A stretch of 36,299 nt of DNA from a virus (IMGVR_UViG_2657245570_000017:1-36299); one strand, 5' to 3'; numbered from the stretch's first letter, positions 1,006 through 10,750 are shown. Notes: generated by a model from the sequence alone, not told the origin. Made by a program: numbers and translations.

Positions 1006-1101
1006 TGCGAAGCCCTCCAATGAACCGCTCTACAATTTCTCCAGCCTCTTTCCAGCAATAATCAGACCAGACAAAGAGCAGGTCTAACCAGTTTTCTGGC
1101 C

Positions 1102-1422
1102 TTAGCGGGGTGATTTTTGGTTTGTTTCGGTTGAAACCTGATCGCCCTCCGAATCGAAGAAGCCATCAAGAGAGAGAGGCGGAGCAATCTGCCCCGTCGC
1201 AGCATTAGTTTGATTAAACATCACCCAATCCGAATACTTCCGAAAACGAGGATGATTCAAAATCAGGAGTAGCGTTTCTCCAGGTATCATTCTTCCCAAT
1301 ATTTCATAATTTTTGAGATTGTTTTGAGATACCCCTGTCACCTCTTCCATCTCTCTACGTGACAATCCCTCTGCCTCTCGAATCAGGCGAAGTTTTTCTC
1401 CAAGGCTTGATTTATGGATCAT
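1102..1422 (-). CDS. C: Immunity repressor, P2 C-type (HTH)
   Basis: 107 aa from ATG at 1422; C-terminal FRKYSDWVMFNQ...GQIAPPL resembles the P2 C repressor as recalled; divergent from cox. Confidence 0.8.
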   Translation of the reverse strand: MIHKSSLGEKLRLIREAEGLSRREMEEVTGVSQNNLKNYEILGRMIPGETLLLILNHPRFRKYSDWVMFNQTNAATGQIAPPLSLDGFFDSEGDQVSTETNQKSPR

Positions 1423-1440
1423 ATGTGATCTAAACTCCAC

Positions 1441-1537
1441 GATATTGGGTTACATGTAATACAAAACATTCAAATAGCCAAAATAAGCCTATATAAGCCA
1501 TTTTGGGCCATTTGGACGAATTAAGGAGATTACCACA
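1441..1537. promoter_or_regulatory. Lysis-lysogeny switch region (divergent early promoters and operators)
   Basis: Candidate rightward promoter TTCAAA(1469-1474)-17-TATAAG(1492-1497); direct repeats ATAAGCC at 1483-1489 and 1493-1499, 10 bp apart, flank the -10; second repeat pair GCCATTT at 1497 and 1507. Confidence 0.5.
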
Positions 1538-1825
1538 ATGAGCGAATCAGAGCTTGAGGGGTTCATTCAGGTAGCACCATATCCACTTGAAGCGGTGCCA
1601 TATCAACTATTTGCCAAGATGATTGGTCGCAAAGAATCAACCGTCAGAACCATGATTGACGCTGCAAAGTTACCAACGATTGACTTTGTGAAACCAGGTT
1701 CAGTGAAGACGCGAGCATCAGAAAACTGGGTATATCTGCCAGCATTTAACGCAGGTATGCGCAAAGCGTTTTTTGATCAGCCGAAAGAACGCCGCGATGC
1801 ATGGTTGTTGTGGCTGGGGCTTTAA
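1538..1825 (+). CDS. cox: Cox/Apl-like excisionase and early regulator
   Basis: 95 aa, AGGAG RBS, first gene of the rightward early operon opposite the repressor. Confidence 0.7.
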   Translation: MSESELEGFIQVAPYPLEAVPYQLFAKMIGRKESTVRTMIDAAKLPTIDFVKPGSVKTRASENWVYLPAFNAGMRKAFFDQPKERRDAWLLWLGL

Positions 1826-1831
1826 TCATAA

Positions 1832-2038
1832 ATGACCAGCAATATCACCAGCGCCATTTTGGACCTTGTATTCCTAGAAGTGGGTGTAATAGCGATTTAT
1901 CTGCTTAGCAAGCTAACAGGACAAAAAGAACGCTTTATTGTTCTCAACGTTCATTACCTCGCCGCTTATGCCAGAGGTCTTTTTCCGATCACCATTGGTG
2001 CGCTGCTCATGGCGTTTGTTATTTGGCTCATCGGGTAG
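1832..2038 (+). CDS. Small two-helix membrane protein, hypothetical
   Basis: 68 aa with two hydrophobic stretches; no clear RBS. Confidence 0.35.
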   Translation: MTSNITSAILDLVFLEVGVIAIYLLSKLTGQKERFIVLNVHYLAAYARGLFPITIGALLMAFVIWLIG

Positions 2039-2049
2039 AGGCACGAAAA

Positions 2050-2508
2050 ATGAATAAGCAACAGCGAAATGGCAAGCCCCATAACACGGGATTTCGTCGC
2101 AATTACTTTGAAAATGGGTGTTATGCCGGGGAAGTAAATCGGCACGGAGTTTTTGACATGAAGCAACAGCGCAATTCTTCACAGCAACGCTTCCGCAACG
2201 GGGCGGAACGCCACGCTAACCGTTTCGCTACCAGTGCATCGCGTAGCAACTCTCGCTACAGCCTGAGCGAAACACACGCAACACCGGATGGCCACGCTGT
2301 AAAACAAATCGGCGAGCATGCCTGGCTGATTGAGAAAGCTGGAATCGTGGTCCACAAATGCCCACGCAATCCGTTTACCGGAAACCGCATTTTTGCATTG
2401 AGCTGCGGCGACAATCACTTCGGGCAGGATTTCACATTATACGAAGCGCTTCGCACGGTTGATCGTCTGCTTCGCGGGCAAAGTTTTATTAAACAGGCTG
2501 ATTTATAA
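2050..2508 (+). CDS. Early regulatory protein, hypothetical (186 CII-like position)
   Basis: ATG at 2050 with AGAGG RBS, 152 aa, basic N-terminus; position matches the gene following apl/cox in 186-like phages; function not established from sequence. Confidence 0.5.
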   Translation: MNKQQRNGKPHNTGFRRNYFENGCYAGEVNRHGVFDMKQQRNSSQQRFRNGAERHANRFATSASRSNSRYSLSETHATPDGHAVKQIGEHAWLIEKAGIVVHKCPRNPFTGNRIFALSCGDNHFGQDFTLYEALRTVDRLLRGQSFIKQADL

Positions 2509-2528
2509 CAGGTGCTTTATGACCAAAG

Positions 2529-2797
2529 AGCATGCACAAGGTGTATTTATCCGTTTTATTGATTTTCGCGGTGAACTGTTATTACGCGCATCAGCCATTG
2601 ACGGAGTTGTTCCATCCGAAAAAAACGCAGCTACTTACGTTTATCTGAACGGTACGCGCCTGACTGTGGAGCTTCCGTACCAGACCGTACGAGAAATCAT
2701 TAGCGAAGCTGAAAAGGCACGTCAGGTTAATGGCGATGAACCCTATATCGAAATTATTTGTATGGATTCAGAAGCTGAAATTCAGAAAGCAGATTAA
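2529..2797 (+). CDS. Hypothetical early protein
   Basis: 89 aa from ATG at 2529; packed in the early operon. Confidence 0.5.
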
Positions 2798-2808
2798 AAG
2801 GCATTGCG

Positions 2809-3051
2809 ATGGGCAAAGAATATAAAACTCTCATTAATAAAGCACTTGAACGATTTTATTTTCGCTTAAGTGCATCAGGCGCTCATGCTGAACGTGCAGC
2901 CCGTGACTCATTGACCAGGGCAATCCGGAGTTTGTATGACGTCGCTTTTTACGCTGATGATCTGGATGCACTTAACGAACTTTCCGAGCTGATCTGTGCC
3001 GCAGAATGCGGGGAACATATTGAACCGTATAAGCTGGGGAATATCGCATGA
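2809..3051 (+). CDS. Hypothetical early protein
   Basis: 80 aa; ATG at 2809. Confidence 0.5.
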   Translation: MGKEYKTLINKALERFYFRLSASGAHAERAARDSLTRAIRSLYDVAFYADDLDALNELSELICAAECGEHIEPYKLGNIA

Positions 3052-3161
3052 GTATATTTATCTCATGGCTTGTTCTGATTATTTCGGTGGCCTGCGCCAT
3101 TGGGATTATGCGAATTATTCATTCAGTAAAAAAGATTGAACGCTTTTTCACTGACGAATAA
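3048..3161 (+). CDS. Small hydrophobic peptide (37 aa), hypothetical
   Basis: ATG at 3048 overlaps the upstream stop (ATGA); MSIFISWLVLIISVACAIGIM is a single predicted transmembrane helix; AT-rich; below the ORF-track size cut-off. Confidence 0.35.
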   Translation: MSIFISWLVLIISVACAIGIMRIIHSVKKIERFFTDE

Positions 3162-3253
3162 CAGCTTAAACAAAACACCAGATTAAACCCGAAAACCTGA
3201 AAACTATCCGCATTCGCGGAGGTATTCGCACACGTAAATAACGGAGATATAAA

Positions 3254-3670
3254 ATGAACGCAAAAGAAGAAGGCATTATCGACACATTAAAAAAAATATC
3301 AGAAGCGGAAGATGAAATGGCTAAAGATGCCGTGAAGCGTAGCCAACATATGGCAGCACTTCACGCACTGACCATTGCAAAAATCACCGCTGACGCAGCC
3401 AAAATTATTGAGGAACAGAGCAAAGAAATCGACACTCTTAAAACACAGTCAACAGTTGCAGCCATGAATCCGTCCAGCATTGGACGCTGCATTTATATTC
3501 TTGGTTCAGCAATGATGCTGCAATACACCATTATTGCCGAACTGCACGGCAAATACCTGATAACGCCTTACCACACAAAAGAGTCAGAGCTTCTGACAAA
3601 TCTCCGCCTGATAGAACGCTCTCAAGCTGTATTCATTGATGACGCGCAACGTGCCGTATTTAACGCATAG
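3254..3670 (+). CDS. Hypothetical protein, AT-rich moron-like
   Basis: 138 aa; GGAG RBS; lower GC than flanking phage genes; charged N-terminal half and hydrophobic central segment. Confidence 0.55.
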   Translation: MNAKEEGIIDTLKKISEAEDEMAKDAVKRSQHMAALHALTIAKITADAAKIIEEQSKEIDTLKTQSTVAAMNPSSIGRCIYILGSAMMLQYTIIAELHGKYLITPYHTKESELLTNLRLIERSQAVFIDDAQRAVFNA

Positions 3671-3694
3671 GGTTACTGGACAAAGGGGGGCGCA

Positions 3695-3898
3695 ATGGCA
3701 ATTAAGCATTTTTCCGTCGTTCGCTTTACCTCCAGAGGGCGCGAATACGAGGTCGACGAACGCCTGATTACCACTATCGACAAACATCGTTCGGAAAAGG
3801 ATGCACACCACATCTACCTCACTGACGGCACTTACTTCTGCGCCACCAACGTGGCGCGAGTAAATCTTATCCGACAGGTACAGGAGCCACGCAGATGA
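3695..3898 (+). CDS. Hypothetical early protein
   Basis: 67 aa ORF, stop overlaps next start. Confidence 0.5.
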   Translation: MAIKHFSVVRFTSRGREYEVDERLITTIDKHRSEKDAHHIYLTDGTYFCATNVARVNLIRQVQEPRR

Positions 3899-4161
3899 CC
3901 ATTCTGGACTACATCGCTACTCATCCGGGGTGTAGCGGCGGAGAGATCGCCGCAGCACTGAATACTCCAACCACAGCCATTAATGCTGAGTTACGCCAAC
4001 TTTGGCGCGGCGGCTTAGTCATCAGAACAAACCGCAGCACAGGTGGTCGCGCTCGCAAAACAGGAGGCCAGGCTTCTTACCACGTAAACCCGATGCCGTT
4101 CGGGTGTAGCAATCCACTTACTCACATGTTTAACCAGCTACTGAAGGAAGCCAGAGCATGA
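3895..4161 (+). CDS. Putative winged-helix DNA-binding protein
   Basis: 88 aa; MTILDYIATHPGCSGGEIAAALN...LRQLWRGGLV looks like a winged HTH. Confidence 0.5.
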   Translation: MTILDYIATHPGCSGGEIAAALNTPTTAINAELRQLWRGGLVIRTNRSTGGRARKTGGQASYHVNPMPFGCSNPLTHMFNQLLKEARA

Positions 4162-4457
4162 GCACCATCAACCACCAGAAGCTACGCGAACTGGCATTTG
4201 CCCTGCAACGAATGGCAACGCCTCAAAAATTACTGGCATTTCGCGCAATGCTCTCGCCGTCTGCTGTGCTGGCACTGCTGGATGAGCTGGAGCACGCCAG
4301 AACCACGGCTCCTGCCATTCGCCTGACGCTCCATCATGAAATCGCTGATTTCTGCGCGACGTTGGAGGCGCCGGGCGAACCGGAAACGCCGGAAGCAATA
4401 CAGCAAGAGCTGCTGCAACGCATTGACAAGGTTTTTGATTTTTTTCTGAACCAGTAA
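4158..4457 (+). CDS. Hypothetical early protein
   Basis: 99 aa, translationally coupled to the upstream ORF. Confidence 0.5.
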   Translation: MSTINHQKLRELAFALQRMATPQKLLAFRAMLSPSAVLALLDELEHARTTAPAIRLTLHHEIADFCATLEAPGEPETPEAIQQELLQRIDKVFDFFLNQ

Positions 4458-4489
4458 GAAACCAGAACATGCACACACAAAAAAACCGC

Positions 4490-4518
4490 TTGCCATGCCG
4501 CAATCAGTCAGGTTACAT
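4490..4518 (+). promoter_or_regulatory. Candidate sigma70 promoter
   Basis: TTGCCA(4490-4495)-17 nt-TTACAT(4513-4518). Confidence 0.35.
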
Positions 4519-4524
4519 TTCCGC

Positions 4525-4599
4525 TGCACCTCATAAAACGGGTGCCGGGTTTCGCAGCCTGCTGACTAGCAAAGCGCACAACCGCGCCAGCGGTTTTTT
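4525..4599 (+). ncRNA. Candidate small structured RNA (about 75 nt)
   Basis: Between the promoter-like motif and a hairpin plus T7 run (stem 4580-4593, T-run 4593-4599); no RBS-led ORF in this interval. Confidence 0.3.
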
Positions 4600-4779
4600 T
4601 GTGCGTACTGTATTGCCACGTCTTTTTCGCACACGAATTATGGCGGGGCGTACGGGGCCGACTTCGGTCGGGCCGGGTTCTTTGCTAGCCGGTACTGCGA
4701 ACCTCGTACGTCTCGCCACCCACAGTTTCGCAGCTCTGGATGGTGAGTTTTCAAAACTTACTAGCAAAGAGGCCACACC

Positions 4780-5010
4780 ATGGCAAACCGCAAACAGCAC
4801 CGCGCTATCGCGGAGCGTCGTCACATCCAGACTGAAATCGATCGCAGACTCACCCGCGCTGCACACATCGCCTTTATCATGCAATCCAACACATTGCACA
4901 GACTCAACAGCACTATTTCAGCCGACTACTGCGCCGCTGTATTCAGCTATCTGGCGGAAGACCTCCTGTCTCTTCAGGATCTCATCCAGCAGCAAAACAA
5001 ACCCCATTAA
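4780..5010 (+). CDS. Hypothetical basic protein
   Basis: 76 aa; strong RBS AAAGAGG 7 nt upstream of ATG at 4780. Confidence 0.5.
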   Translation: MANRKQHRAIAERRHIQTEIDRRLTRAAHIAFIMQSNTLHRLNSTISADYCAAVFSYLAEDLLSLQDLIQQQNKPH

Positions 5011-5083
5011 TTCCTGTTCCGGGCCTTTCCTGCACCTTGCGGCGGGAGGCCTTCGCACATCTGTAGTAAAGAGGATTGCCGCA

Positions 5084-5449
5084 ATGATTCTCGCCAACGA
5101 CTTTCTTGAATACCTGCTCAACACAGAGCGTGATCTTGCCGTTCGCGTGCGTGAACGTTATGACATGTACCTGAAATCCCTGCCTGTACCGCAGCTCGCT
5201 GACGGAAAATTTGTTATTGATGGTCGCTACATGATTGACAGCCACGAGGGGAATTACAGGCTTTACCGCATTGAAGGCGGCACCCCGTCCGTTATTGGCA
5301 TTTACCAGCGCCCATCCTCTGCGATCGTCGATGTGATTGCCGACAGCATCCGCATCACACACCACCATGCCGACACAGAAGACACTGTGCTGGAGATTCA
5401 GCGGCTGGCTGCCGTTTGCCGTGACACTCTGAATGGTATGACGAAGTAA
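5084..5449 (+). CDS. Hypothetical protein upstream of A
   Basis: 121 aa from ATG at 5084 (AAGAGG RBS); the 326-aa track ORF upstream of this ATG lacks coding signals. Confidence 0.55.
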   Translation: MILANDFLEYLLNTERDLAVRVRERYDMYLKSLPVPQLADGKFVIDGRYMIDSHEGNYRLYRIEGGTPSVIGIYQRPSSAIVDVIADSIRITHHHADTEDTVLEIQRLAAVCRDTLNGMTK

Positions 5450-5455
5450 ATCAGT

Positions 5456-8278
5456 ATGACGACAGAGTACATCAGGGACTGGCAACAACCGCGCCACGCA
5501 GTAGGACGTGAAGGAACGGAGATCCCCGCACCTGAATCCGCGCTTTCCTCATGGCTGGATGCCTACCGGGTAGAGAACGAGCGCCGCCAGGAAATGGCTG
5601 ATGCGGCGTTCTCCGCCACACCGCTGGGCAACCTGATTAATAAAAGCCTGGACGCACAGGAAAAACAGGACAAAACCATCACACTGGCAGGAGACGCCAG
5701 AAAACAGGCACGCGGCGCGGTGGATGAAGCCATGGCCTCGCTGCGCCTGCTGCCGTCCTATCTGCGCGATCCGCTTATTCGCCACCTCTCCTTCCTGCGC
5801 AAAAAACAGGAAGCCGATCGCCGGAAAGGCAAAAAGAGCTGGCAGGCGGAACGCTATGCACGCGGAACCCTGCGCAAAATATTCGAACGTCTGGACCGCA
5901 CCGATCACCGCTGGCTGACACCGGGTTATCGCTCCCTTGCCGGACGCGAACGCCTGGACGATTTGCTTTACCTGCCGCAGCTCAACAAACACCAGATACA
6001 GACGCTGGCCACCATGACGGCGGCGATGTTCAGCAGCACCTTCGAAAAACTCTGCGATGGCTTTGGCGCGACCGATGGCGAGCTGACCATGGATGTAACG
6101 CTGAAGGCGTATCAGATGCTGGCCCGCATGGCGTTACACCTGCACGCCATGCCTCCACATTATGACGCACTGACAACAGACAAAGACCGGAGGAACGAAC
6201 CAGACACGGAGCTGCTGCCGGGCGCAATCCTTCGCCTGACCTGTGCGCAATGGTGGAAACGCAAACTGTGGCTGTTACGTTGCGAGTGGCGGGAAGAACA
6301 ACTCCGCGCCGCCTGTCTGGTTTCCAGAAAAACATCGCCCTATCTGAGCCAGGACGCGTTAAGCGAGTTTCGCGCACAGCGCGAGAAAACACGCGATTTC
6401 CTGAAAAGTTTCATGCTGGAAAATGAAGACGGGTTCACGATTGATCTCGAGACGGTGTATTACGCGGGAGTAAGTAACCCGGTTCACCGTAAGGCAGAAA
6501 TGATGGCCACCATGAAGGGACTGGAACTTCTGGCCGAAGCCCGTGGCGACAGAGCGGTGTTTCTGACTGTCACCTGCCCGTCAAAATATCACGCAACAAC
6601 GGAGAACGGTCATCCGAATCCCAAATGGAACGGGGCCACAATGCGCAACTCCAGCGATTACCTGGTTAACACGTTTTTTGCGGCGGTCCGCAAAAAACTG
6701 AACCGCGACGGTCTTCGCTGGTATGGCATCCGCACGGTGGAGCCTCACCATGACGGTACCGTACACTGGCATATGATGGTCTTTGCACATCCGGAAGAAA
6801 TCGACAGCATCGTGGCCATCACCCGCGATATTGCCATTCAGGAAGACCGCCACGAGCTGGGCAATGATATTACTCCGCGCTTTAAGGCGGAGTATGTCGA
6901 CGGCTCAAAAGGCACACCAACCAGCTATATCGCGACCTACATTGGAAAAAACCTGGACAGCCGCGCCGTGGATGGCATTGACCCGAAAACGGGCAAACCA
7001 CGCGTTGACCACGAAACCGGAAAATCAATGGCCGAGAGCGTGGAGCGCGCCATCGGCTGGGCGCGCCTTCACCGGGTCCGCCAGTTCCAGTTCTTTGGCA
7101 TCCCCTCCCGTCAGGTGTGGCGTGAACTGCGCCGCCTTGCCAGCCAGATGGCACGCAACCCGGAAGGCCCGCAACGACTGAAGGACGACGCAATGGATGC
7201 GGTACTCGCTGCCGCTGATGCCGGGTGTTTTGCCTCCTACATTGAAAAACAGGGTGGCGTACTTGTTCCACGCAAAGACTACCTGATTCGCACCGCCTAC
7301 GACCTCGCAGATGAGCTGAACGATTACGGCGAACAGAGTGTACAGATTTACGGGATCTGGTCGCCGCTCATCGGGGAGTCTTCCCGCGTGTGCACGCACC
7401 CGGATAACTGGAAGCTGGTAAGACGTAAACCGGAAGCGGAAGACAGCGCCCGCGAAAATGGTTTTGACCTTCAGGGCGGCCCTGCCGCCCCTTGGACTCG
7501 TGGCAATAACTGTCCCCGTGTACAGGAAACAGACAACAACGGGACAGAACAGCCGGAAGAACGGCCAGCACCGTGGCCGCAGCTTCCTGACGGCGTTGAC
7601 GTGAACGAATGGGTGCGCTCACTGAAACGGCACGAACGCCGGGCGCTGATGCGTTCGCTGCGTGACAAACAGGCAAAAAACAGCAGTGATGAAATGCAGA
7701 ACTGGACACAGAGCCGCAAACAGCCACAGCCTTTGCCTGATAACCACGAATTACTCGCTAAAGAATGGCGGGAGTCTGCTGAATCTCTCGGCCTGCATAT
7801 CGGTGAACAGCAGATGCAGCACCTGTTACGGGGCGGCAGTCTGTACGTTGACGGCAGCATCATTGCACCGCAGGGATTTGAAATTGTACGCAAACCGGAT
7901 ACCCGACCGGACAGCCGGATCACGCAGCTCTGGCAGCGCCTGAGCCGTAACCACGGCGTAAGCAGCACGGAGATCCGCCATAACCCGGTCGCCAGCTATC
8001 TGGAACAGCTGGGGGCATCAGACCCCGAAGCCGCCGCACGCCTGGCATCCACACTTCAGCAAGACCAGAACACCATGAAAACACCCGTTACCGTGCTTTC
8101 TGACATGCTGCGCGCCATCCGCGACGCAGAGCACGCACAGAGAATCAGTGAAACCACTGAACGCGCCCGCCGCAAAGCAGACCTGCTGCGGGGTGGCCTG
8201 ACCATTGGAAACAAAAAACAGACAGAAACGGGATTCACAAATCCCGTAAATGAGCAAAAAACGCGCCGCGATATATGA
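5456..8278 (+). CDS. A: Replication initiation endonuclease, P2 gpA-like, with long C-terminal extension
   Basis: 940 aa; HUH-type motif VHWHMMVF and paired catalytic tyrosines YIATYIGK; about 180-250 aa longer than the P2 or 186 A proteins as recalled. Confidence 0.85.
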   Translation: MTTEYIRDWQQPRHAVGREGTEIPAPESALSSWLDAYRVENERRQEMADAAFSATPLGNLINKSLDAQEKQDKTITLAGDARKQARGAVDEAMASLRLLPSYLRDPLIRHLSFLRKKQEADRRKGKKSWQAERYARGTLRKIFERLDRTDHRWLTPGYRSLAGRERLDDLLYLPQLNKHQIQTLATMTAAMFSSTFEKLCDGFGATDGELTMDVTLKAYQMLARMALHLHAMPPHYDALTTDKDRRNEPDTELLPGAILRLTCAQWWKRKLWLLRCEWREEQLRAACLVSRKTSPYLSQDALSEFRAQREKTRDFLKSFMLENEDGFTIDLETVYYAGVSNPVHRKAEMMATMKGLELLAEARGDRAVFLTVTCPSKYHATTENGHPNPKWNGATMRNSSDYLVNTFFAAVRKKLNRDGLRWYGIRTVEPHHDGTVHWHMMVFAHPEEIDSIVAITRDIAIQEDRHELGNDITPRFKAEYVDGSKGTPTSYIATYIGKNLDSRAVDGIDPKTGKPRVDHETGKSMAESVERAIGWARLHRVRQFQFFGIPSRQVWRELRRLASQMARNPEGPQRLKDDAMDAVLAAADAGCFASYIEKQGGVLVPRKDYLIRTAYDLADELNDYGEQSVQIYGIWSPLIGESSRVCTHPDNWKLVRRKPEAEDSARENGFDLQGGPAAPWTRGNNCPRVQETDNNGTEQPEERPAPWPQLPDGVDVNEWVRSLKRHERRALMRSLRDKQAKNSSDEMQNWTQSRKQPQPLPDNHELLAKEWRESAESLGLHIGEQQMQHLLRGGSLYVDGSIIAPQGFEIVRKPDTRPDSRITQLWQRLSRNHGVSSTEIRHNPVASYLEQLGASDPEAAARLASTLQQDQNTMKTPVTVLSDMLRAIRDAEHAQRISETTERARRKADLLRGGLTIGNKKQTETGFTNPVNEQKTRRDI
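8228..8247. promoter_or_regulatory. Palindrome 1, ACGGGATT-N4-AATCCCGT
   Basis: Perfect 8-bp inverted arms; lies in the 3' end of A, 127 bp upstream of the parM-like start. Confidence 0.5.
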
Positions 8279-8301
8279 AGCGCGCATAAAACAGGCAAAA
8301 A

Positions 8302-8321
8302 CGGGATTTCAGAATCCCGTA
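8302..8321. promoter_or_regulatory. Palindrome 2, ACGGGATT-N4-AATCCCGT
   Basis: Second copy 74 bp downstream of the first, 34 bp upstream of the parM-like start, overlapping a promoter-like region. Confidence 0.5.
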
Positions 8322-8354
8322 AACGATTAATTAATCAACATAAGGAAAAGCGAC

Positions 8355-9314
8355 ATGAAAATTTGTATCGATGACGGCTCCACCAACATCAAGCTGGCAT
8401 GGACTGAGAACGGCGAACGCCGCAACGCCATCAGCCCGAACAGCTTCAAGTCGGAATGGTCTGCGCCGTTCGGTGGCACGCAGCCCGCGAACTACATGCT
8501 TGATGGCGTGCGCTATGGTTTTGATCCGGTCAGCGATCGCTTTGTCCAGACGACCGACACGCAATACCAGTACAGCGATGTGAATGTCATTGCCATTCAT
8601 CACGCGCTGGTCAAATCAGGCATCACACCACAGGAAGTGGATGTGGTTGTCACCCTGCCACTGAGCGAATATTTCGACACAAACGCACAGCCGGACATGG
8701 CCAACATCAACCGCAAAAAAGCAAACGTCATGCGCCCGGTGGCGTACCAGAACGGAAAAGCATTCACTATCCGTAACGTACGGGTTATGCCTGAATCCAT
8801 TCCGGCTGGTTTTAAAGCACTGGCTGACATGAGTCCGTTTGAATCCCTGCTGATTGTGGATTTAGGCGGAACCACGCTGGATGTGGCAAAGGTTCAGGGA
8901 CAACTGGCAGGTATCAGCCAGGTGTTTTGCGATCCACACGTAGGCGTTTCCCTGATGGCCGATGCCGTACTGTCGGTGATGGCCACTAACGGTATGCGCA
9001 CCAGTCACCACATCGCCAATACCATTATCGAACATCGCCATGATGAAGCCTGGCTGCGCCAGCACATCCACAATGACGCGCATTACGCCAGCCTGATGGC
9101 GGTTATTCGTGAAAAGGAAGAAACACTGAAACAACGCGTGATCCGCGCGCTGGCGGTTTTTTCGGGTTACGGGCGGGTGATGGTTGTCGGTGGCGGGGCG
9201 GAGATTGTGGCACCCGCTATCCGCGAAGCCTGCGGAGTTAATGCGACTTTCATCGCGGACGGGGTGCCACAATTTGCTCTGGTTAATGGGCTGTACGCAA
9301 TGAACAAGGAGTAA
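8355..9314 (+). CDS. parM: Actin-like segregation ATPase, ParM/StbA family
   Basis: 319 aa; MKICIDDGSTNIKLAW, ISPNSFK, YSDVNVIAIHHAL, MPESIPAG, LIVDLGGTTLD, VVGGGAE and LVNGLY are collinear with R1 ParM as recalled; AAGGA RBS. Confidence 0.8.
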   Translation: MKICIDDGSTNIKLAWTENGERRNAISPNSFKSEWSAPFGGTQPANYMLDGVRYGFDPVSDRFVQTTDTQYQYSDVNVIAIHHALVKSGITPQEVDVVVTLPLSEYFDTNAQPDMANINRKKANVMRPVAYQNGKAFTIRNVRVMPESIPAGFKALADMSPFESLLIVDLGGTTLDVAKVQGQLAGISQVFCDPHVGVSLMADAVLSVMATNGMRTSHHIANTIIEHRHDEAWLRQHIHNDAHYASLMAVIREKEETLKQRVIRALAVFSGYGRVMVVGGGAEIVAPAIREACGVNATFIADGVPQFALVNGLYAMNKE

Positions 9315-9318
9315 ACCA

Positions 9319-9630
9319 ATGACGACACCAACCAGAAGAATAAGTTTCTATCTGAAGCCAGCTGCCGTCAAGAACGAAGGAGAAGCATGCGCCTGGCTGG
9401 ACAGTCTTACACCAGAAGCCCGCAAAAGCGGCCAACGCGTGGCTTTTCTGGCCGGGCTGGCACTTCTGAAGACGAATCCGGCAGAGGCTTACCGACTGGC
9501 CGCATGGGCTGATGATGAGATGTTACCTGTGACACAAATCAGCTCAAAAAAGTTTGAAGCACAGTCTGCACCAGTGGCTAAGATAACCAGCCAGATGGCT
9601 GGGAATATCCGGGCGTTATTTCCTGAGTAA
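9319..9630 (+). CDS. ParR/StbB-like centromere-binding adaptor (putative)
   Basis: 103 aa, 4 bp after the parM-like gene, AAGGAG RBS; N-terminal region ISFYLKP...RVAFLAGLALLK resembles ParR; sits at the parR position. Confidence 0.5.
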   Translation: MTTPTRRISFYLKPAAVKNEGEACAWLDSLTPEARKSGQRVAFLAGLALLKTNPAEAYRLAAWADDEMLPVTQISSKKFEAQSAPVAKITSQMAGNIRALFPE

Positions 9631-9758
9631 AAGCATCTGCGCGAAAAATGCTCACGTTTATAGAGACAGTATCATTCCATTTGGCACACTTACTTCAATA
9701 ATCGATCTGTTAAACAAATAGATTGTCTATTATCTATCGATTAAAACGATCAATTATC

Positions 9759-9786
9759 TTGACAGTAATGTGCCTTTTTGTAAGAT
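9759..9786 (+). promoter_or_regulatory. Candidate sigma70 promoter with GATC in the -10
   Basis: TTGACA(9759-9764)-16 nt-TAAGAT(9781-9786); GATC at 9784-9787 overlaps the -10; two more GATC upstream at 9704 and 9748. Confidence 0.5.
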
Positions 9787-9835
9787 CGTTCGCATTGTGA
9801 GCGACAAGATAATTGCGCGGCATTGTCCATGCAAA

Positions 9836-9865
9836 ACGCCCCAATAGCAGCAACTATTGGGGCGT
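9836..9865. other. Perfect 12-bp stem hairpin in leader
   Basis: ACGCCCCAATAG-CAGCAA-CTATTGGGGCGT; a short T-run follows only on the minus strand. Confidence 0.6.
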
Positions 9866-9994
9866 AAAACTCGGTCGGACTCACTTAACCTGATATGCGT
9901 GCCTTCCGAAGTAAATCAAAATGTGCGTCGTATATTTTATTGCTTACACGCACCTCTGTAAAGGCACGCATATTTTTCCTATGAGGTAAATAAA

Positions 9995-10264
9995 GTGCGG
10001 GCTAAAACAGGTATTTGCAAGAACCCTCATCGTTATAATCCAACATTTCTGTCTCTCCCTGAATATCAAGGACAAGAAGGTCGGCACAAATGCGCTGCCT
10101 GTGCTTTTGAGCTAGGCATAAAAGATGCGCTTGAAGGACGCGCTATGGCTCAGAATGATTTAGTTTTAGCTAACATTCCGTTTAGCCAGGCTGGAACTGT
10201 AAGGCACAGAGATGCCTATGAAGCATATGTTCGTGGTTGGCGATTAATACACAGCAACAATTGA
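9995..10264 (+). CDS. Orphan hypothetical protein (89 aa), moron-like
   Basis: GTG start with GAGG RBS 8 nt upstream; own promoter and terminator; AT-rich context; no family recognised. Confidence 0.55.
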   Translation: MRAKTGICKNPHRYNPTFLSLPEYQGQEGRHKCAACAFELGIKDALEGRAMAQNDLVLANIPFSQAGTVRHRDAYEAYVRGWRLIHSNN

Positions 10265-10273
10265 TACTTTTGA

Positions 10274-10297
10274 AGCGCCGATAAGGCGCTTTTTTTG
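10274..10297 (+). terminator. Rho-independent terminator
   Basis: AGCGCC-GATAA-GGCGCT followed by T6. Confidence 0.75.
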
Positions 10298-10379
10298 TTT
10301 GCACGATAGTGCACAAGTTTGCACAATTTTTTTGAACGACTTTTTGTACTTCCGGCCCGCGTGGTGGCTGGATCCGTCA

Positions 10380-10620
10380 AGGATCCGTACGTGCACAAAA
10401 AAACGCGTTTTTTCTGCGCGCAGGTGACGGGGGAACAGCCCGCGTTTCAGGGGGTAAATAGCATCCCCTGAACGATGTCGCAGCAACACAACAGAATGGC
10501 TGTATTTCTCACGCTGAGCGTGAAAAAGACGTGAGGGCTTTTGATTTGATGGGGTGGCAGATAAGGCCGTCAAAATCGCACTGAGGCGGCGAGAACATGC
10601 AGTCAGCGCGATGGGATTGC
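10380..10620. other. Putative cos packaging region
   Basis: Non-coding interval 3' of the portal gene, as in P2; palindrome AAAAAAACGCGTTTTTT (10396-10412); GGATCCGT direct repeat; G-rich GGTGACGGGGGAACAGCC (10423-10440) and GAGGCGGCGAG (about 10590) loosely resemble the P2/186 cohesive-end sequence as recalled. Confidence 0.35.
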
Positions 10621-10698
10621 GTAAGAGCCTGACCGTCGATGATGGCAATAAGCTGGAAGACGTCGTGAAATTATCTGATTGATACAGGAGCTGGAGAG

Positions 10699-10723
10699 TC
10701 GGGGCATAAATTTTTTATGCCCC
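10699..10723. other. Hairpin downstream of the portal gene
   Basis: GGGGCATA-loop-TATGCCCC 8-bp stem; no clean T-run on either strand. Confidence 0.4.
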
Positions 10724-10750
10724 GGCGAAGCAGCAGACAAGCGAAGCGCG

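What the first reader, a model, noticed from the sequence alone, without database searches (positions are those of the whole stretch)
3048..3670. AT-rich two-gene insertion in the early operon: 37-aa membrane peptide plus 138-aa protein
Seen: GC content drops across 3050-3700; a 37-aa single-helix peptide is translationally coupled to the upstream gene, followed by a 138-aa protein with charged coiled-coil-like N-terminus and hydrophobic centre. Inference: horizontally acquired moron, possibly a small toxin or membrane effector pair.
Basis: seen in the sequence. Interest (0 to 1): 0.45.

Follow-up and report, generated by a model that had tools for sequence, protein, structure and literature searches.

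The report
Optional early gene in P2-like prophage
This is not a two-gene toxin insertion: a small membrane peptide belongs to the conserved early operon of a common E. coli P2-like prophage, and next to it lies one optional gene for a soluble protein of unknown function, so the finding is largely ordinary.

Summary
The window is a P88-like (Xuanwuvirus, P2-like) E. coli prophage. The flagged genes lie in its early lytic operon, between cox and the replication gene.

Both ORFs are real, and the ATGA start/stop overlap with the upstream gene is real.
- **The low GC is not specific.** It runs from about 1100 to 3680 and includes conserved core genes.
- **Only the 138-aa gene is an indel.** It is a clean cassette of about 445 bp (about 3236-3680). 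The 37-aa peptide and the spacer after it occur in every Xuanwuvirus record, including five phages that lack the 138-aa gene.
- **The "hydrophobic centre" is not a membrane segment.** It is predicted beta strand and is not conserved as hydrophobic.

The 138-aa protein is predicted to be soluble: a helical hairpin, a linker and an SH3/KOW-like small beta-barrel. Its family is tiny (26 representatives among 1.84 billion proteins). The members whose context I read all lie in P2-like early operons. It matches no Pfam, PADLOC or NCBIfam model.

About a quarter of complete E. coli genomes carry this early region. In a 57-row sample, about 60% of sites held this gene family, about 37% were empty and about 2% held an unrelated gene.

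My best reading is a dispensable early-expressed protein-binding accessory factor, for host takeover or counter-defence. That function is inferred. I found no evidence for a toxin pair.

The parts
2809..3051 (+). DUF4754 gene (80 aa), a conserved early-operon gene. Its stop codon overlaps the start of the 37-aa ORF (ATGA).
   Evidence: Pfam DUF4754, E 2.8e-54. Annotated in the 99.9% identical RefSeq twin and in phage P88. The same ATGA coupling to a small membrane-peptide ORF is seen in Salmonella locus L010.
3048..3161 (+). 37-aa single-pass membrane peptide gene (MSIFISWLVLIISVACAIGIMRIIHSVKKIERFFTDE). It is a core gene of the Xuanwuvirus early operon, with a basic C-terminal tail that suggests N-out/C-in topology.
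   Evidence: Kyte-Doolittle 19-residue maximum 2.68. tblastn finds it in all 14 Xuanwuvirus phage records, 12 of them at 82-100% identity and the two phage 503458 records at 57%; the records include those without the 138-aa gene. Substitutions in the membrane helix are conservative, while the C-terminal tail is truncated or frameshifted in two phages. A diverged 50-aa counterpart sharing the SW...AI.I.R pattern sits at the same place in Salmonella. No Pfam, PHROG, PADLOC or NCBIfam hit.
3162..3235 (+). Conserved intergenic spacer, present whether or not the cassette is there. It holds a 5-bp hairpin TCCGC-ATTC-GCGGA (3207-3220) and the motif GGAGGTATTCGCACA (3218-3232). The variable site begins directly after it.
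   Evidence: Multi-locus alignment. The stem is kept by a double change (CCGC/GCGG to CCGT/ACGG) in the Shae, 569R5 and UTI89 type and by a T in L018 that allows a G-U pair, while the loop varies (ATTC, ATTA, ATGC, ACTC, ATTT). The motif recurs at 5045-5059.
3236..3680 (+). Single-gene cassette of about 445 bp, the actual presence/absence polymorphism. It holds its own ribosome-binding site GGAG (3243-3246), the 138-aa ORF and about 10 nt of trailer. The junctions are uncertain by a few bases.
   Evidence: Absent in P88, 520873, Chuche, P884B11 and PhiR44_2, where CACACGC joins CAAGGAGGCGCAATG directly. Present in Shae_phiSM, 569R5, UTI89, O157:H7 86-24 and GF66.2. The same site holds an unrelated 106-aa gene in strain FDAARGOS_772 and two genes in Salmonella.
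3254..3670 (+). 138-aa ORF for a soluble two-domain protein. Residues 3-65 form an antiparallel helical hairpin, about 66-78 a variable linker, and about 79-138 an SH3/KOW/Tudor-like small beta-barrel.
3275..3302 (-). Antisense sigma-70 promoter-like site (CTGATA, 16 nt, GATAAT) inside codons 8-17 of the 138-aa gene. With the minus-strand terminator-like reading of the 3207-3220 hairpin it would give an antisense RNA of about 70 nt over the ribosome-binding site and start codon. Unverified.
   Evidence: Consensus scan. A site scoring at least 9 of 12 lies at the identical position in 10 of 11 alleles, down to about 39% amino-acid identity. No such site exists at the 67-aa gene start in any locus. 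Ser16 is TCA in 7 of 7 divergent alleles. Against: promoter-like sites are not enriched overall (3 found, 4.7 expected), the putative RNA is not unusually structured (z -0.41), and there is no Rfam hit.
3695..3898 (+). 67-aa conserved early gene (phrog_3459), the right-hand flank of the variable site.
   Evidence: Its ribosome-binding site and start (GG..CGCAATGGCA) are shared by filled and empty sites.

Best explanation
Two unrelated things sit side by side in the early lytic operon (cox to replication gene) of a P88-like, P2-family prophage.

1. **The 37-aa ORF is a core gene of this phage genus.** It encodes a single-pass inner-membrane peptide. Ribosomes finishing the upstream DUF4754 gene reinitiate on it through the ATGA overlap. 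Its functional partner, if it has one, is therefore DUF4754 and not the 138-aa protein.

2. **The 138-aa ORF is a self-contained optional cassette of about 445 bp.** It occupies a small variable site directly after a conserved intergenic hairpin and motif. The site can be empty, hold one of several diverged alleles of this gene, or hold unrelated genes. The cassettes are probably swapped by homologous recombination through the conserved flanks and, for this gene, within the gene itself.

The product is a cytoplasmic, mildly acidic protein. It has a helical hairpin that is probably an oligomerisation or contact surface and is the most variable part. A flexible linker joins this to a conserved SH3/KOW-like beta-barrel.

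The gene has no detectable promoter or terminator of its own, so it should be made with the early genes after infection or induction and be silent in the lysogen.

The most likely mode of action is inferred, not shown. I think it binds a host protein, or a host defence or competing-element protein, to help lytic growth in some hosts. That would make it a dispensable host-takeover or counter-defence accessory factor.
For: **Shown**
- Phage identity and operon position.
- The 37-aa gene occurs in all Xuanwuvirus records, with or without the 138-aa gene.
- The ATGA coupling to DUF4754 is kept in Salmonella with a diverged peptide.
- The indel is gene-sized and clean.
- In an evenly spaced 57-row sample of the 1367 of 5426 complete E. 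coli genomes that carry the region, the site held the 138-type in about 28%, the 136-type in about 33%, nothing in about 37% and another gene in about 2%. The other occupants are described.
- Viable isolated phages lack the gene: P88, PhiR44_2 and Chuche (PMC5285337).
- PhiSM lysogens of E. coli K-12 grow normally (PMC6456863); the deposited PhiSM record (Shae_phiSM, OR565851) carries the 136-aa allele.
- There is no membrane segment, and the fold is a hairpin plus a small beta-barrel.
- The gene is under purifying selection (dN/dS 0.23-0.32 in the C-terminal domain).
- The window and O157 alleles are identical in the 3' half but differ by dS 0.34-0.48 in the 5' half, which shows recombination within the gene.
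- The hairpin surface, positions 10-45, is the most variable part (entropy 1.42 against 0.44 for residues 100-138).
- Distant members (about 39% identity) sit behind the same motif in P2-like early operons.
- No + strand promoter- or terminator-like site lies next to the gene.

**Inferred**
- Early-only expression.
- A protein-binding role in takeover or counter-defence. This rests on small size, acidity (pI 5.8), patchy presence, allelic diversity and the position in the early operon.
Against: - There is no functional evidence of any kind. No homologue has a known role.
- dN/dS never robustly exceeds 1, so an arms race is not demonstrated. The N-terminal variability may simply reflect relaxed constraint plus recombination.
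- SH3/KOW-like barrels also bind nucleic acids and RNA polymerase, so a role in the phage's own regulation is equally compatible with the fold.
- The promoter scan is a crude consensus match and could miss a real promoter.
- A conserved antisense promoter-like site hints at extra regulation that this account does not require.
- The C-terminal domain model has only moderate support (17 sequences).
Confidence: 0.45

Rival explanations
1. Both ORFs arrived together as one AT-rich, horizontally acquired moron and act as a pair: a small membrane toxin or effector plus a partner protein.
For: The 37-aa product looks generically like a small hydrophobic toxin, with a membrane helix followed by a basic tail. 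GC over 3048-3670 is low (0.419). The two genes are adjacent.
Against: - The 37-aa gene and the spacer are present in every Xuanwuvirus record, including five phages without the 138-aa gene.
- The low GC is shared with conserved upstream genes.
- The 37-aa gene is coupled to DUF4754, not to the 138-aa gene.
- The 138-aa protein has no membrane segment.
- No toxin family matches.
- Lysogens of a phage carrying both genes grow normally (PMC6456863), although the operon is expected to be repressed there.
Confidence: 0.05
2. The 138-aa gene is a true moron. It is expressed from the prophage and protects the lysogen by superinfection exclusion or anti-phage defence, like P2 old, tin and fun.
For: It shows presence/absence polymorphism at a fixed site with several alternative occupants. 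P2-like phages are known to carry defence hotspots (PMC9122126). The gene is AT-rich.
Against: - It lies inside the early operon that the immunity repressor shuts off, with no + strand promoter- or terminator-like site of its own.
- It is not at the known P2 hotspot, which lies between gpA and gpQ (PMC9122126).
- It has no PADLOC hit.
- It has no enzymatic or membrane domain.
Confidence: 0.12
3. The 138-aa protein is a non-essential modulator of the phage's own development. It would bind RNA polymerase, Rho, the ribosome or nucleic acid through its KOW/Tudor-like barrel and tune early transcription, replication timing or the lysis-lysogeny choice.
Confidence: 0.2
4. The 138-aa gene is a tightly controlled, potentially harmful gene. 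A cis-encoded antisense RNA of about 70 nt, starting near 3268 on the minus strand and ending at the 3207-3220 hairpin, would repress its translation. That layout resembles a type I toxin-antitoxin pair. This is compatible with any of the functions above.
For: A promoter-like site sits at the same codons in 10 of 11 alleles despite divergence, and none at the neighbouring gene. Ser16 is always TCA. A minus-strand terminator-like hairpin lies at 3220-3207.
Against: - The hairpin is equally conserved where the gene and its promoter-like site are absent.
- One variant (L018) keeps the stem only on the + strand.
- The N-terminal residues are conserved at the protein level, which can explain the site.
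- The putative RNA is not unusually stable and has no Rfam match.
- The terminator is weak (5 bp).
Confidence: 0.1

Closest known systems
Non-essential small ORFs of the P2/186 early operons (P2 orf78-83; 186 fil and dhr). Recalled from my own knowledge of the P2 literature, not tested here.
   Same: Small genes of mostly unknown function lie between cox/apl and the replication gene. They are co-transcribed from the early promoter, repressed in the lysogen and dispensable for plaque formation. Some, such as 186 fil and dhr, act on host functions.
   Different: No sequence relationship was detected. tblastn of both ORFs against 50,697 phage records, which I expected to include P2 and 186, hit only Xuanwuvirus records.
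Morons of temperate phages (the Hendrix/Juhala concept) and the P2 old, tin and fun loci or the gpA-gpQ defence hotspot (PMC9122126)
   Same: A gene-sized presence/absence polymorphism at a fixed site between conserved genes, with alternative occupants.
   Different: No promoter or terminator of its own was detected. It lies inside a repressed operon rather than at the cos-proximal hotspot. Its composition is the same as the conserved upstream genes. It matches no defence-system model.
Small phage anti-defence and host-takeover proteins encoded in early regions (for example Ocr/Ard-type or anti-CRISPR-type accessory genes). An analogy from general knowledge.
   Same: Small, acidic and early-encoded. 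Patchy distribution among close relatives, allelic diversity and no enzymatic domain.
   Different: No homology or structural match to any characterised one. No target is known. Positive selection was not demonstrated.
Type I toxins and other small membrane peptides (Hok, Ldr, TisB, Fst, Ibs)
   Same: The 37-aa product is a single hydrophobic helix with a charged tail.
   Different: No family match. It is translationally coupled within a long operon rather than having its own promoter and an overlapping antisense RNA. It is conserved as a core phage gene.
SH3-like small beta-barrels (KOW of NusG/Spt5, Tudor, chromo)
   Different: Sequence identity is 2-13%, and there is no Pfam KOW, Tudor or SH3 hit. 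It carries an extra short helix and a C-terminal helix, and it is fused to a helical hairpin not seen in the matches.

Membership tests
Moron (autonomous accessory transcription unit in a prophage) | Present in some and absent in other closely related phages at the same site | tested here: met
   Met for the 138-aa gene. Not met for the 37-aa gene, which is present in all 14 Xuanwuvirus records.
Moron (autonomous accessory transcription unit in a prophage) | Own promoter and terminator that allow expression from the repressed prophage | tested here: not met
   No + strand promoter-like site between 1000 and 4490, and no terminator-like site flanking 3236-3680 on the + strand. This is a consensus scan only; transcript mapping was not possible.
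Moron (autonomous accessory transcription unit in a prophage) | Base composition distinct from the flanking phage genes | tested here: not met
   The 138-aa gene has GC 0.439 and GC3 0.424. The conserved upstream genes have GC 0.43-0.45 and GC3 0.34-0.41. It differs only from the downstream flank (GC 0.52-0.54).
Type I toxin-antitoxin small hydrophobic toxins (Hok, Ldr, TisB, Fst, Ibs) | Sequence membership in a known toxin family | tested here: not met
   No Pfam or NCBIfam hit for the 37-aa peptide at E <= 0.1.
Type I toxin-antitoxin small hydrophobic toxins (Hok, Ldr, TisB, Fst, Ibs) | Independent toxin transcript controlled by an overlapping or adjacent antisense RNA | tested here: not met
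   The 37-aa ORF overlaps the upstream gene's stop (ATGA) within the operon. No minus-strand promoter-like site overlaps it. No Rfam match in 2900-3800.
Type I toxin-antitoxin small hydrophobic toxins (Hok, Ldr, TisB, Fst, Ibs) | Toxicity on expression | not testable with these tools
   Needs inducible expression in E. coli.
Known anti-phage defence systems (PADLOC-DB 2.0) | Match to a defence-protein model | tested here: not met
   No hit at E <= 0.1 for the 37-aa and 138-aa proteins or for three other early-operon ORFs (the 68-aa, 92-aa and 67-aa proteins).
P2-like defence hotspot (between gpA and gpQ; PMC9122126) | Location between the replication gene and the portal gene, next to cos | tested here: not met
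   The site is at 3236-3680, upstream of the replication gene (5456-8278). The gpA-gpQ interval in this window is 8279-10750.
KOW / SH3-like small beta-barrel | Five-stranded small barrel fold | tested here: met
KOW / SH3-like small beta-barrel | Sequence signature of the KOW, Tudor or SH3 families | tested here: not met
   No such Pfam hit in any of 16 family members at E <= 1.
phrog_9338 (phage protein family of unknown function) | Full-length profile match | tested here: met
   E 1.5e-81, residues 1-138 against profile positions 1-138.

The most novel reading that the evidence does not exclude
The site directly after the conserved hairpin and motif may be a previously undescribed mini-hotspot for counter-defence or host-takeover cassettes in the early operon of P2-like phages. 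On this reading the 138-aa hairpin-plus-barrel protein founds a new anti-defence family, with its variable hairpin tracking a variable host target. It might also be under the control of a conserved cis-antisense RNA.
Probability: 0.15. Interest if true: 0.55.

Novelty: new member of a known kind. Interest (0 to 1): 0.2.

Why it matters
This prophage family sits in about a quarter of complete E. coli genomes, including O157:H7, UTI89 and ST131 strains. Its unknown genes are therefore widespread.

The correction narrows what is worth testing. It points to one optional soluble early protein and, separately, a conserved membrane peptide coupled to DUF4754. It rules out the presumed toxin pair.

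If the optional gene proves to be a counter-defence or takeover factor, it would add a second kind of variable locus to P2-like phages, besides the known defence hotspots. As it stands, it is an ordinary accessory gene of unknown function in a well-known phage group.

Tried and rejected
- **Membrane or toxin reading of the 138-aa protein.** Rejected by hydropathy, homologue sequences and predicted beta structure.
- **Foldseek against viral predicted structures.** No match at E <= 0.001. The afdb50 library was unavailable.
- **Sequence searches.** Pfam, NCBIfam, PADLOC and PDB sequences gave nothing above noise.
- **Search of the 1.84-billion-protein representative library.** It found only 26 relatives and none informative.
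- **Homologue search with the 37-aa peptide.** I replaced it with tblastn against phages.
- **Locus search with the wide alignment.** It failed. With the narrower alignment it gave one Salmonella locus.
- **The nearby C4 antisense RNA as regulator of the GGAGGNNTTCGCACA motif upstream of the gene.** Duplex energies of the two motif windows rank 1043 and 508 of 1360 windows, so there is no support.
- **Positive selection in the hairpin.** dN/dS is raised (up to 0.84) but not robustly above 1. Values of 1.2-1.6 rest on a handful of changes.
- **Relatedness of the alternative 106-aa occupant to the 138-aa family.** hhalign probability 0.1%.
- **Relatedness of the flanking 92-aa and 67-aa proteins.** BLASTP E 0.26, so not supported.
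- **Literature searches.** Searches for the protein accessions, DUF4754, Xuanwuvirus and CP-933T found nothing on these genes.

Full report
**Context**

The window is a P2-family prophage of the P88-like genus Xuanwuvirus. The segment 2400-4300 matches E. coli GF66.2 at 99.9%; there the prophage lies next to pdxB. It matches phages P88, 569R5, 705R2, Shae_phiSM and others at 85-90%.

| Feature | Coordinates | Strand |
|---|---|---|
| Integrase | 1-1020 | - |
| Repressor | 1102-1440 | - |
| cox | 1538-1825 | + |
| 68-aa ORF | 1832-2038 | + |
| DUF4761 gene | ends 2508 | + |
| 92-aa ORF | 2519-2797 | + |
| DUF4754 gene | 2809-3051 | + |
| 37-aa ORF | 3048-3161 | + |
| 138-aa ORF | 3254-3670 | + |
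| 67-aa ORF | 3695-3898 | + |
| MarR-like winged-helix gene | 3895-4161 | + |
| Ead/Ea22-like gene | 4158-4457 | + |
| Two small RNAs | 4526-4723 | + |
| Derepression gene | 4780-5010 | + |
| 121-aa ORF | 5084-5449 | + |
| Replication endonuclease | 5456-8278 | + |

"Early operon" is therefore correct.

**Checking the observation**

Both ORFs exist. The 37-aa ATG overlaps the DUF4754 stop as ATGA.

GC over 3048-3670 is 0.419 against 0.530 for the window, in the lowest 1% of equal-sized windows. The low-GC block is much wider than the two genes, though:

| Gene | GC |
|---|---|
| Repressor | 0.44 |
| 92-aa gene | 0.43 |
| DUF4754 | 0.45 |
| 37-aa gene | 0.36 |
| 138-aa gene | 0.44 |
| 67-aa, MarR-like and Ead-like genes | 0.52-0.54 |

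GC3 runs 0.34-0.54 upstream of about 3680 and 0.53-0.64 downstream. Composition therefore does not set the two genes apart from conserved core genes.

**What is variable**

I aligned the window with P88 and seven other phage or prophage loci. The 37-aa gene and the spacer 3162-3235 are conserved throughout. The block from about 3236 to 3680 is simply missing in P88, 520873, Chuche, P884B11 and PhiR44_2. That block is the ribosome-binding site GGAG, the 138-aa ORF and about 10 nt. In those phages CACACGC joins CAAGGAGGCGCAATG, the start region of the 67-aa gene.

The block is present in Shae_phiSM, 569R5 and 705R2, and in UTI89, an O157:H7 strain and other chromosomes.

tblastn finds the 37-aa peptide in all 14 Xuanwuvirus phage records. 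It finds the 138-aa family in only 4.

Of 5426 complete E. coli genomes, 1367 carry this early region. I took an evenly spaced sample of 57 informative rows and read the span between the flanks:

| Site state | Share of sample |
|---|---|
| 138-type allele | about 28% |
| 136-type allele | about 33% |
| Empty | about 37% |
| Another gene | about 2% |

One "other" occupant is an unrelated 106-aa helical protein, phrog_26764. A Salmonella prophage carries a 136-aa homologue plus an extra 117-aa ORF at the same site.

So this is a small variable site, and the 138-aa gene is a single-gene optional cassette. The "two-gene insertion" is wrong.

**The 37-aa peptide**

- It has one strongly hydrophobic helix (Kyte-Doolittle maximum 2.68) followed by a basic tail.
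- Substitutions among phages are conservative within the helix. The tail is truncated in Chuche and frameshifted in PhiR44_2.
- In Salmonella, a diverged 50-aa single-helix ORF sharing the SW...AI.I.R pattern starts with the same ATGA overlap on the DUF4754 homologue.
- The conserved unit is therefore DUF4754 plus the peptide. No family in Pfam, PHROGs, NCBIfam or PADLOC matches the peptide.

**The 138-aa protein**

- It is phrog_9338, of unknown function, with no Pfam, NCBIfam, PADLOC or PDB sequence match above noise.
- The word-indexed search found 87 clusters; every source name it returned is Escherichia, E. albertii or Citrobacter. The exhaustive profile search of 1.84 billion representatives found only 26.
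- Distant members (30-55% identity, some only 122 aa) also lie in P2-like early operons, behind the same intergenic motif and upstream of the derepression and replication genes.
- AlphaFold2 predicts a confident helical hairpin (residues 3-65), a low-confidence linker and a beta-rich C-terminal domain. Modelled alone, the C-terminal domain reaches pLDDT 83.6 and pTM 0.69.
It scores 1.46 and is not hydrophobic in homologues.
- The full-length model has no significant match among viral predicted structures.
- Some E. albertii alleles carry 7-residue tandem repeats in the linker, which fits a flexible tether.

**Evolution of the gene**

It is a real coding gene. dN/dS is 0.23-0.32 in the C-terminal domain and 0.2-0.84 in the hairpin.

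The hairpin surface, positions 10-45, is the most variable part (entropy 1.42 against 0.44 for residues 100-138).

The window allele and the O157 allele are identical at nucleotide level in the 3' half but differ by dS 0.34-0.48 in the 5' half. The gene is therefore itself mosaic through recombination.

Allele divergence (39-98% amino-acid identity) far exceeds that of the flanks. The same DUF4754 protein accession, WP_000514277, is found next to different cassettes. That is what exchange of old cassettes through conserved flanks would produce. It does not look like a recent import from outside.

**Expression and likely role**

No + strand promoter-like site lies between the switch region and 4490, and no terminator-like site brackets the cassette. 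By inference the gene is made with the early genes and is silent in lysogens.

Phages without the gene are viable isolates (P88, PhiR44_2 and Chuche; PMC5285337). PhiSM lysogens grow normally (PMC6456863), and the deposited PhiSM record carries the 136-aa allele. The gene is therefore dispensable and not overtly harmful in that state.

Taken together, the protein is small, acidic, soluble, early-encoded, patchy and allelically diverse, with no enzymatic domain. That points to a protein-binding accessory factor for host takeover or counter-defence. This is my best guess (about 0.45 including the anatomy), and it remains an inference.

The rivals are as follows:
- A modulator of the phage's own transcription or replication acting through the KOW-like barrel (0.2).
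- A lysogen-expressed exclusion gene (0.12).
- The toxin pair (0.05).
- A gene under cis-antisense RNA control (0.1), which could hold alongside any of the functions above.

**Side observations next to the gene**

- The hairpin at 3207-3220 keeps its stem through a compensatory double change and a G-U-compatible change while its loop varies.
- It overlaps the motif GGAGGNNTTCGCACA, which recurs at 5045-5059 upstream of the 121-aa gene. Two exact matches were found where 0.07 are expected, but I derived the pattern after seeing both copies.
- An antisense promoter-like site sits at the same codons in 10 of 11 divergent alleles, and none at the neighbouring gene. Protein-level conservation of the N-terminus may explain this, and the putative RNA shows no special structure.
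- The C4-like RNA downstream does not pair preferentially with the motif.

**Comparison with what is known**

The arrangement resembles the non-essential small ORFs of the P2 and 186 early operons and, by analogy, early accessory genes of other phages. This comparison rests on general knowledge; no homology was found.

It fails the strict moron criteria on promoter, terminator and composition. It is not at the published P2 defence hotspot between gpA and gpQ (PMC9122126). It belongs to no toxin or defence family that I could test.

**Verdict**

The thing itself is an ordinary accessory gene of unknown function in a very common prophage family, beside a conserved small membrane peptide. Interest is 0.2. 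It is a new member of a known kind.

Noticed in passing
window 4526-4600 and 4636-4723 (+): Two Rfam matches lie in the stretch with no annotated gene between the Ead-like gene and the derepression gene. They are isrK Hfq-binding sRNA (65.5 bits) and C4 antisense RNA (82.8 bits). Promoter-like sites sit at 4490-4519 and 4613-4641, and a terminator-like site at 4580-4595. This is a P1/P7/P4-style RNA immunity module inside a P2-like early operon, just upstream of the 76-aa derepression ORF (4780-5010). The 326-aa ORF 4469-5449 that spans them is probably spurious.
   Followed up: partly
window 3218-3232 and 5045-5059 (+): The motif GGAGGNNTTCGCACA occurs twice on the + strand of the early operon (0.07 expected). 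Each copy lies in an intergenic spacer 17-26 nt upstream of a ...CGCAATG start, in the empty-site phages for the first copy. Both copies are conserved in Salmonella. Its function is unknown, and the pattern was derived after seeing the two copies. Pairing with the C4 RNA was tested and not supported.
   Followed up: partly
window 3207-3220: The intergenic hairpin TCCGC-ATTC-GCGGA keeps its stem across loci. There is one compensatory C-G to T-A change, and one variant pairs only on the + strand through G-U. Five different loop sequences occur. It is present whether or not the 138-aa cassette follows. On the minus strand it reads as a weak terminator.
   Followed up: partly
window 3275-3302 (-): A sigma-70 promoter-like site antisense to codons 8-17 of the 138-aa gene is kept at the identical position in 10 of 11 alleles, down to about 39% identity. 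The Ser16 codon is TCA in 7 of 7. It could drive a short antisense RNA over the gene's start, but this may be a by-product of N-terminal protein conservation.
   Followed up: partly
window 8355-9630 (+) and about 9500-10250: The gpA-gpQ interval is the published P2 defence hotspot. Here it carries a ParM/StbA-like actin-type segregation protein (319 aa; Pfam E 7e-82 and 6e-69) and a plasmid-stability StbB-like protein (103 aa; E 1e-23). After them comes the window's other low-GC patch (0.40-0.44), with an 89-aa ORF that has no family match. A plasmid-type partition pair in an integrating P2-like prophage is unusual enough to look at.
   Followed up: partly
L018 742-1062 (E. coli FDAARGOS_772) and L010 5408-5761 (Salmonella enterica s1): These are other occupants of the same variable site. 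One is an unrelated 106-aa helical protein (phrog_26764) in place of the 138-aa gene. The other is an extra 117-aa ORF (phrog_16975) after the 136-aa homologue in Salmonella. Both have unknown function.
   Followed up: partly
proteins P0047, P0054, P0035 (E. albertii and related alleles): The linker between the hairpin and the barrel contains one to four extra copies of a 7-residue repeat (DTGLNLS / DTRLNLP). Linker length is therefore variable among alleles.
   Followed up: no
protein P0099 (143 aa): The C-terminal barrel of this family is fused to an unrelated N-terminal segment in one metagenomic representative. This could be a chimeric assembly or a real domain swap.
   Followed up: no
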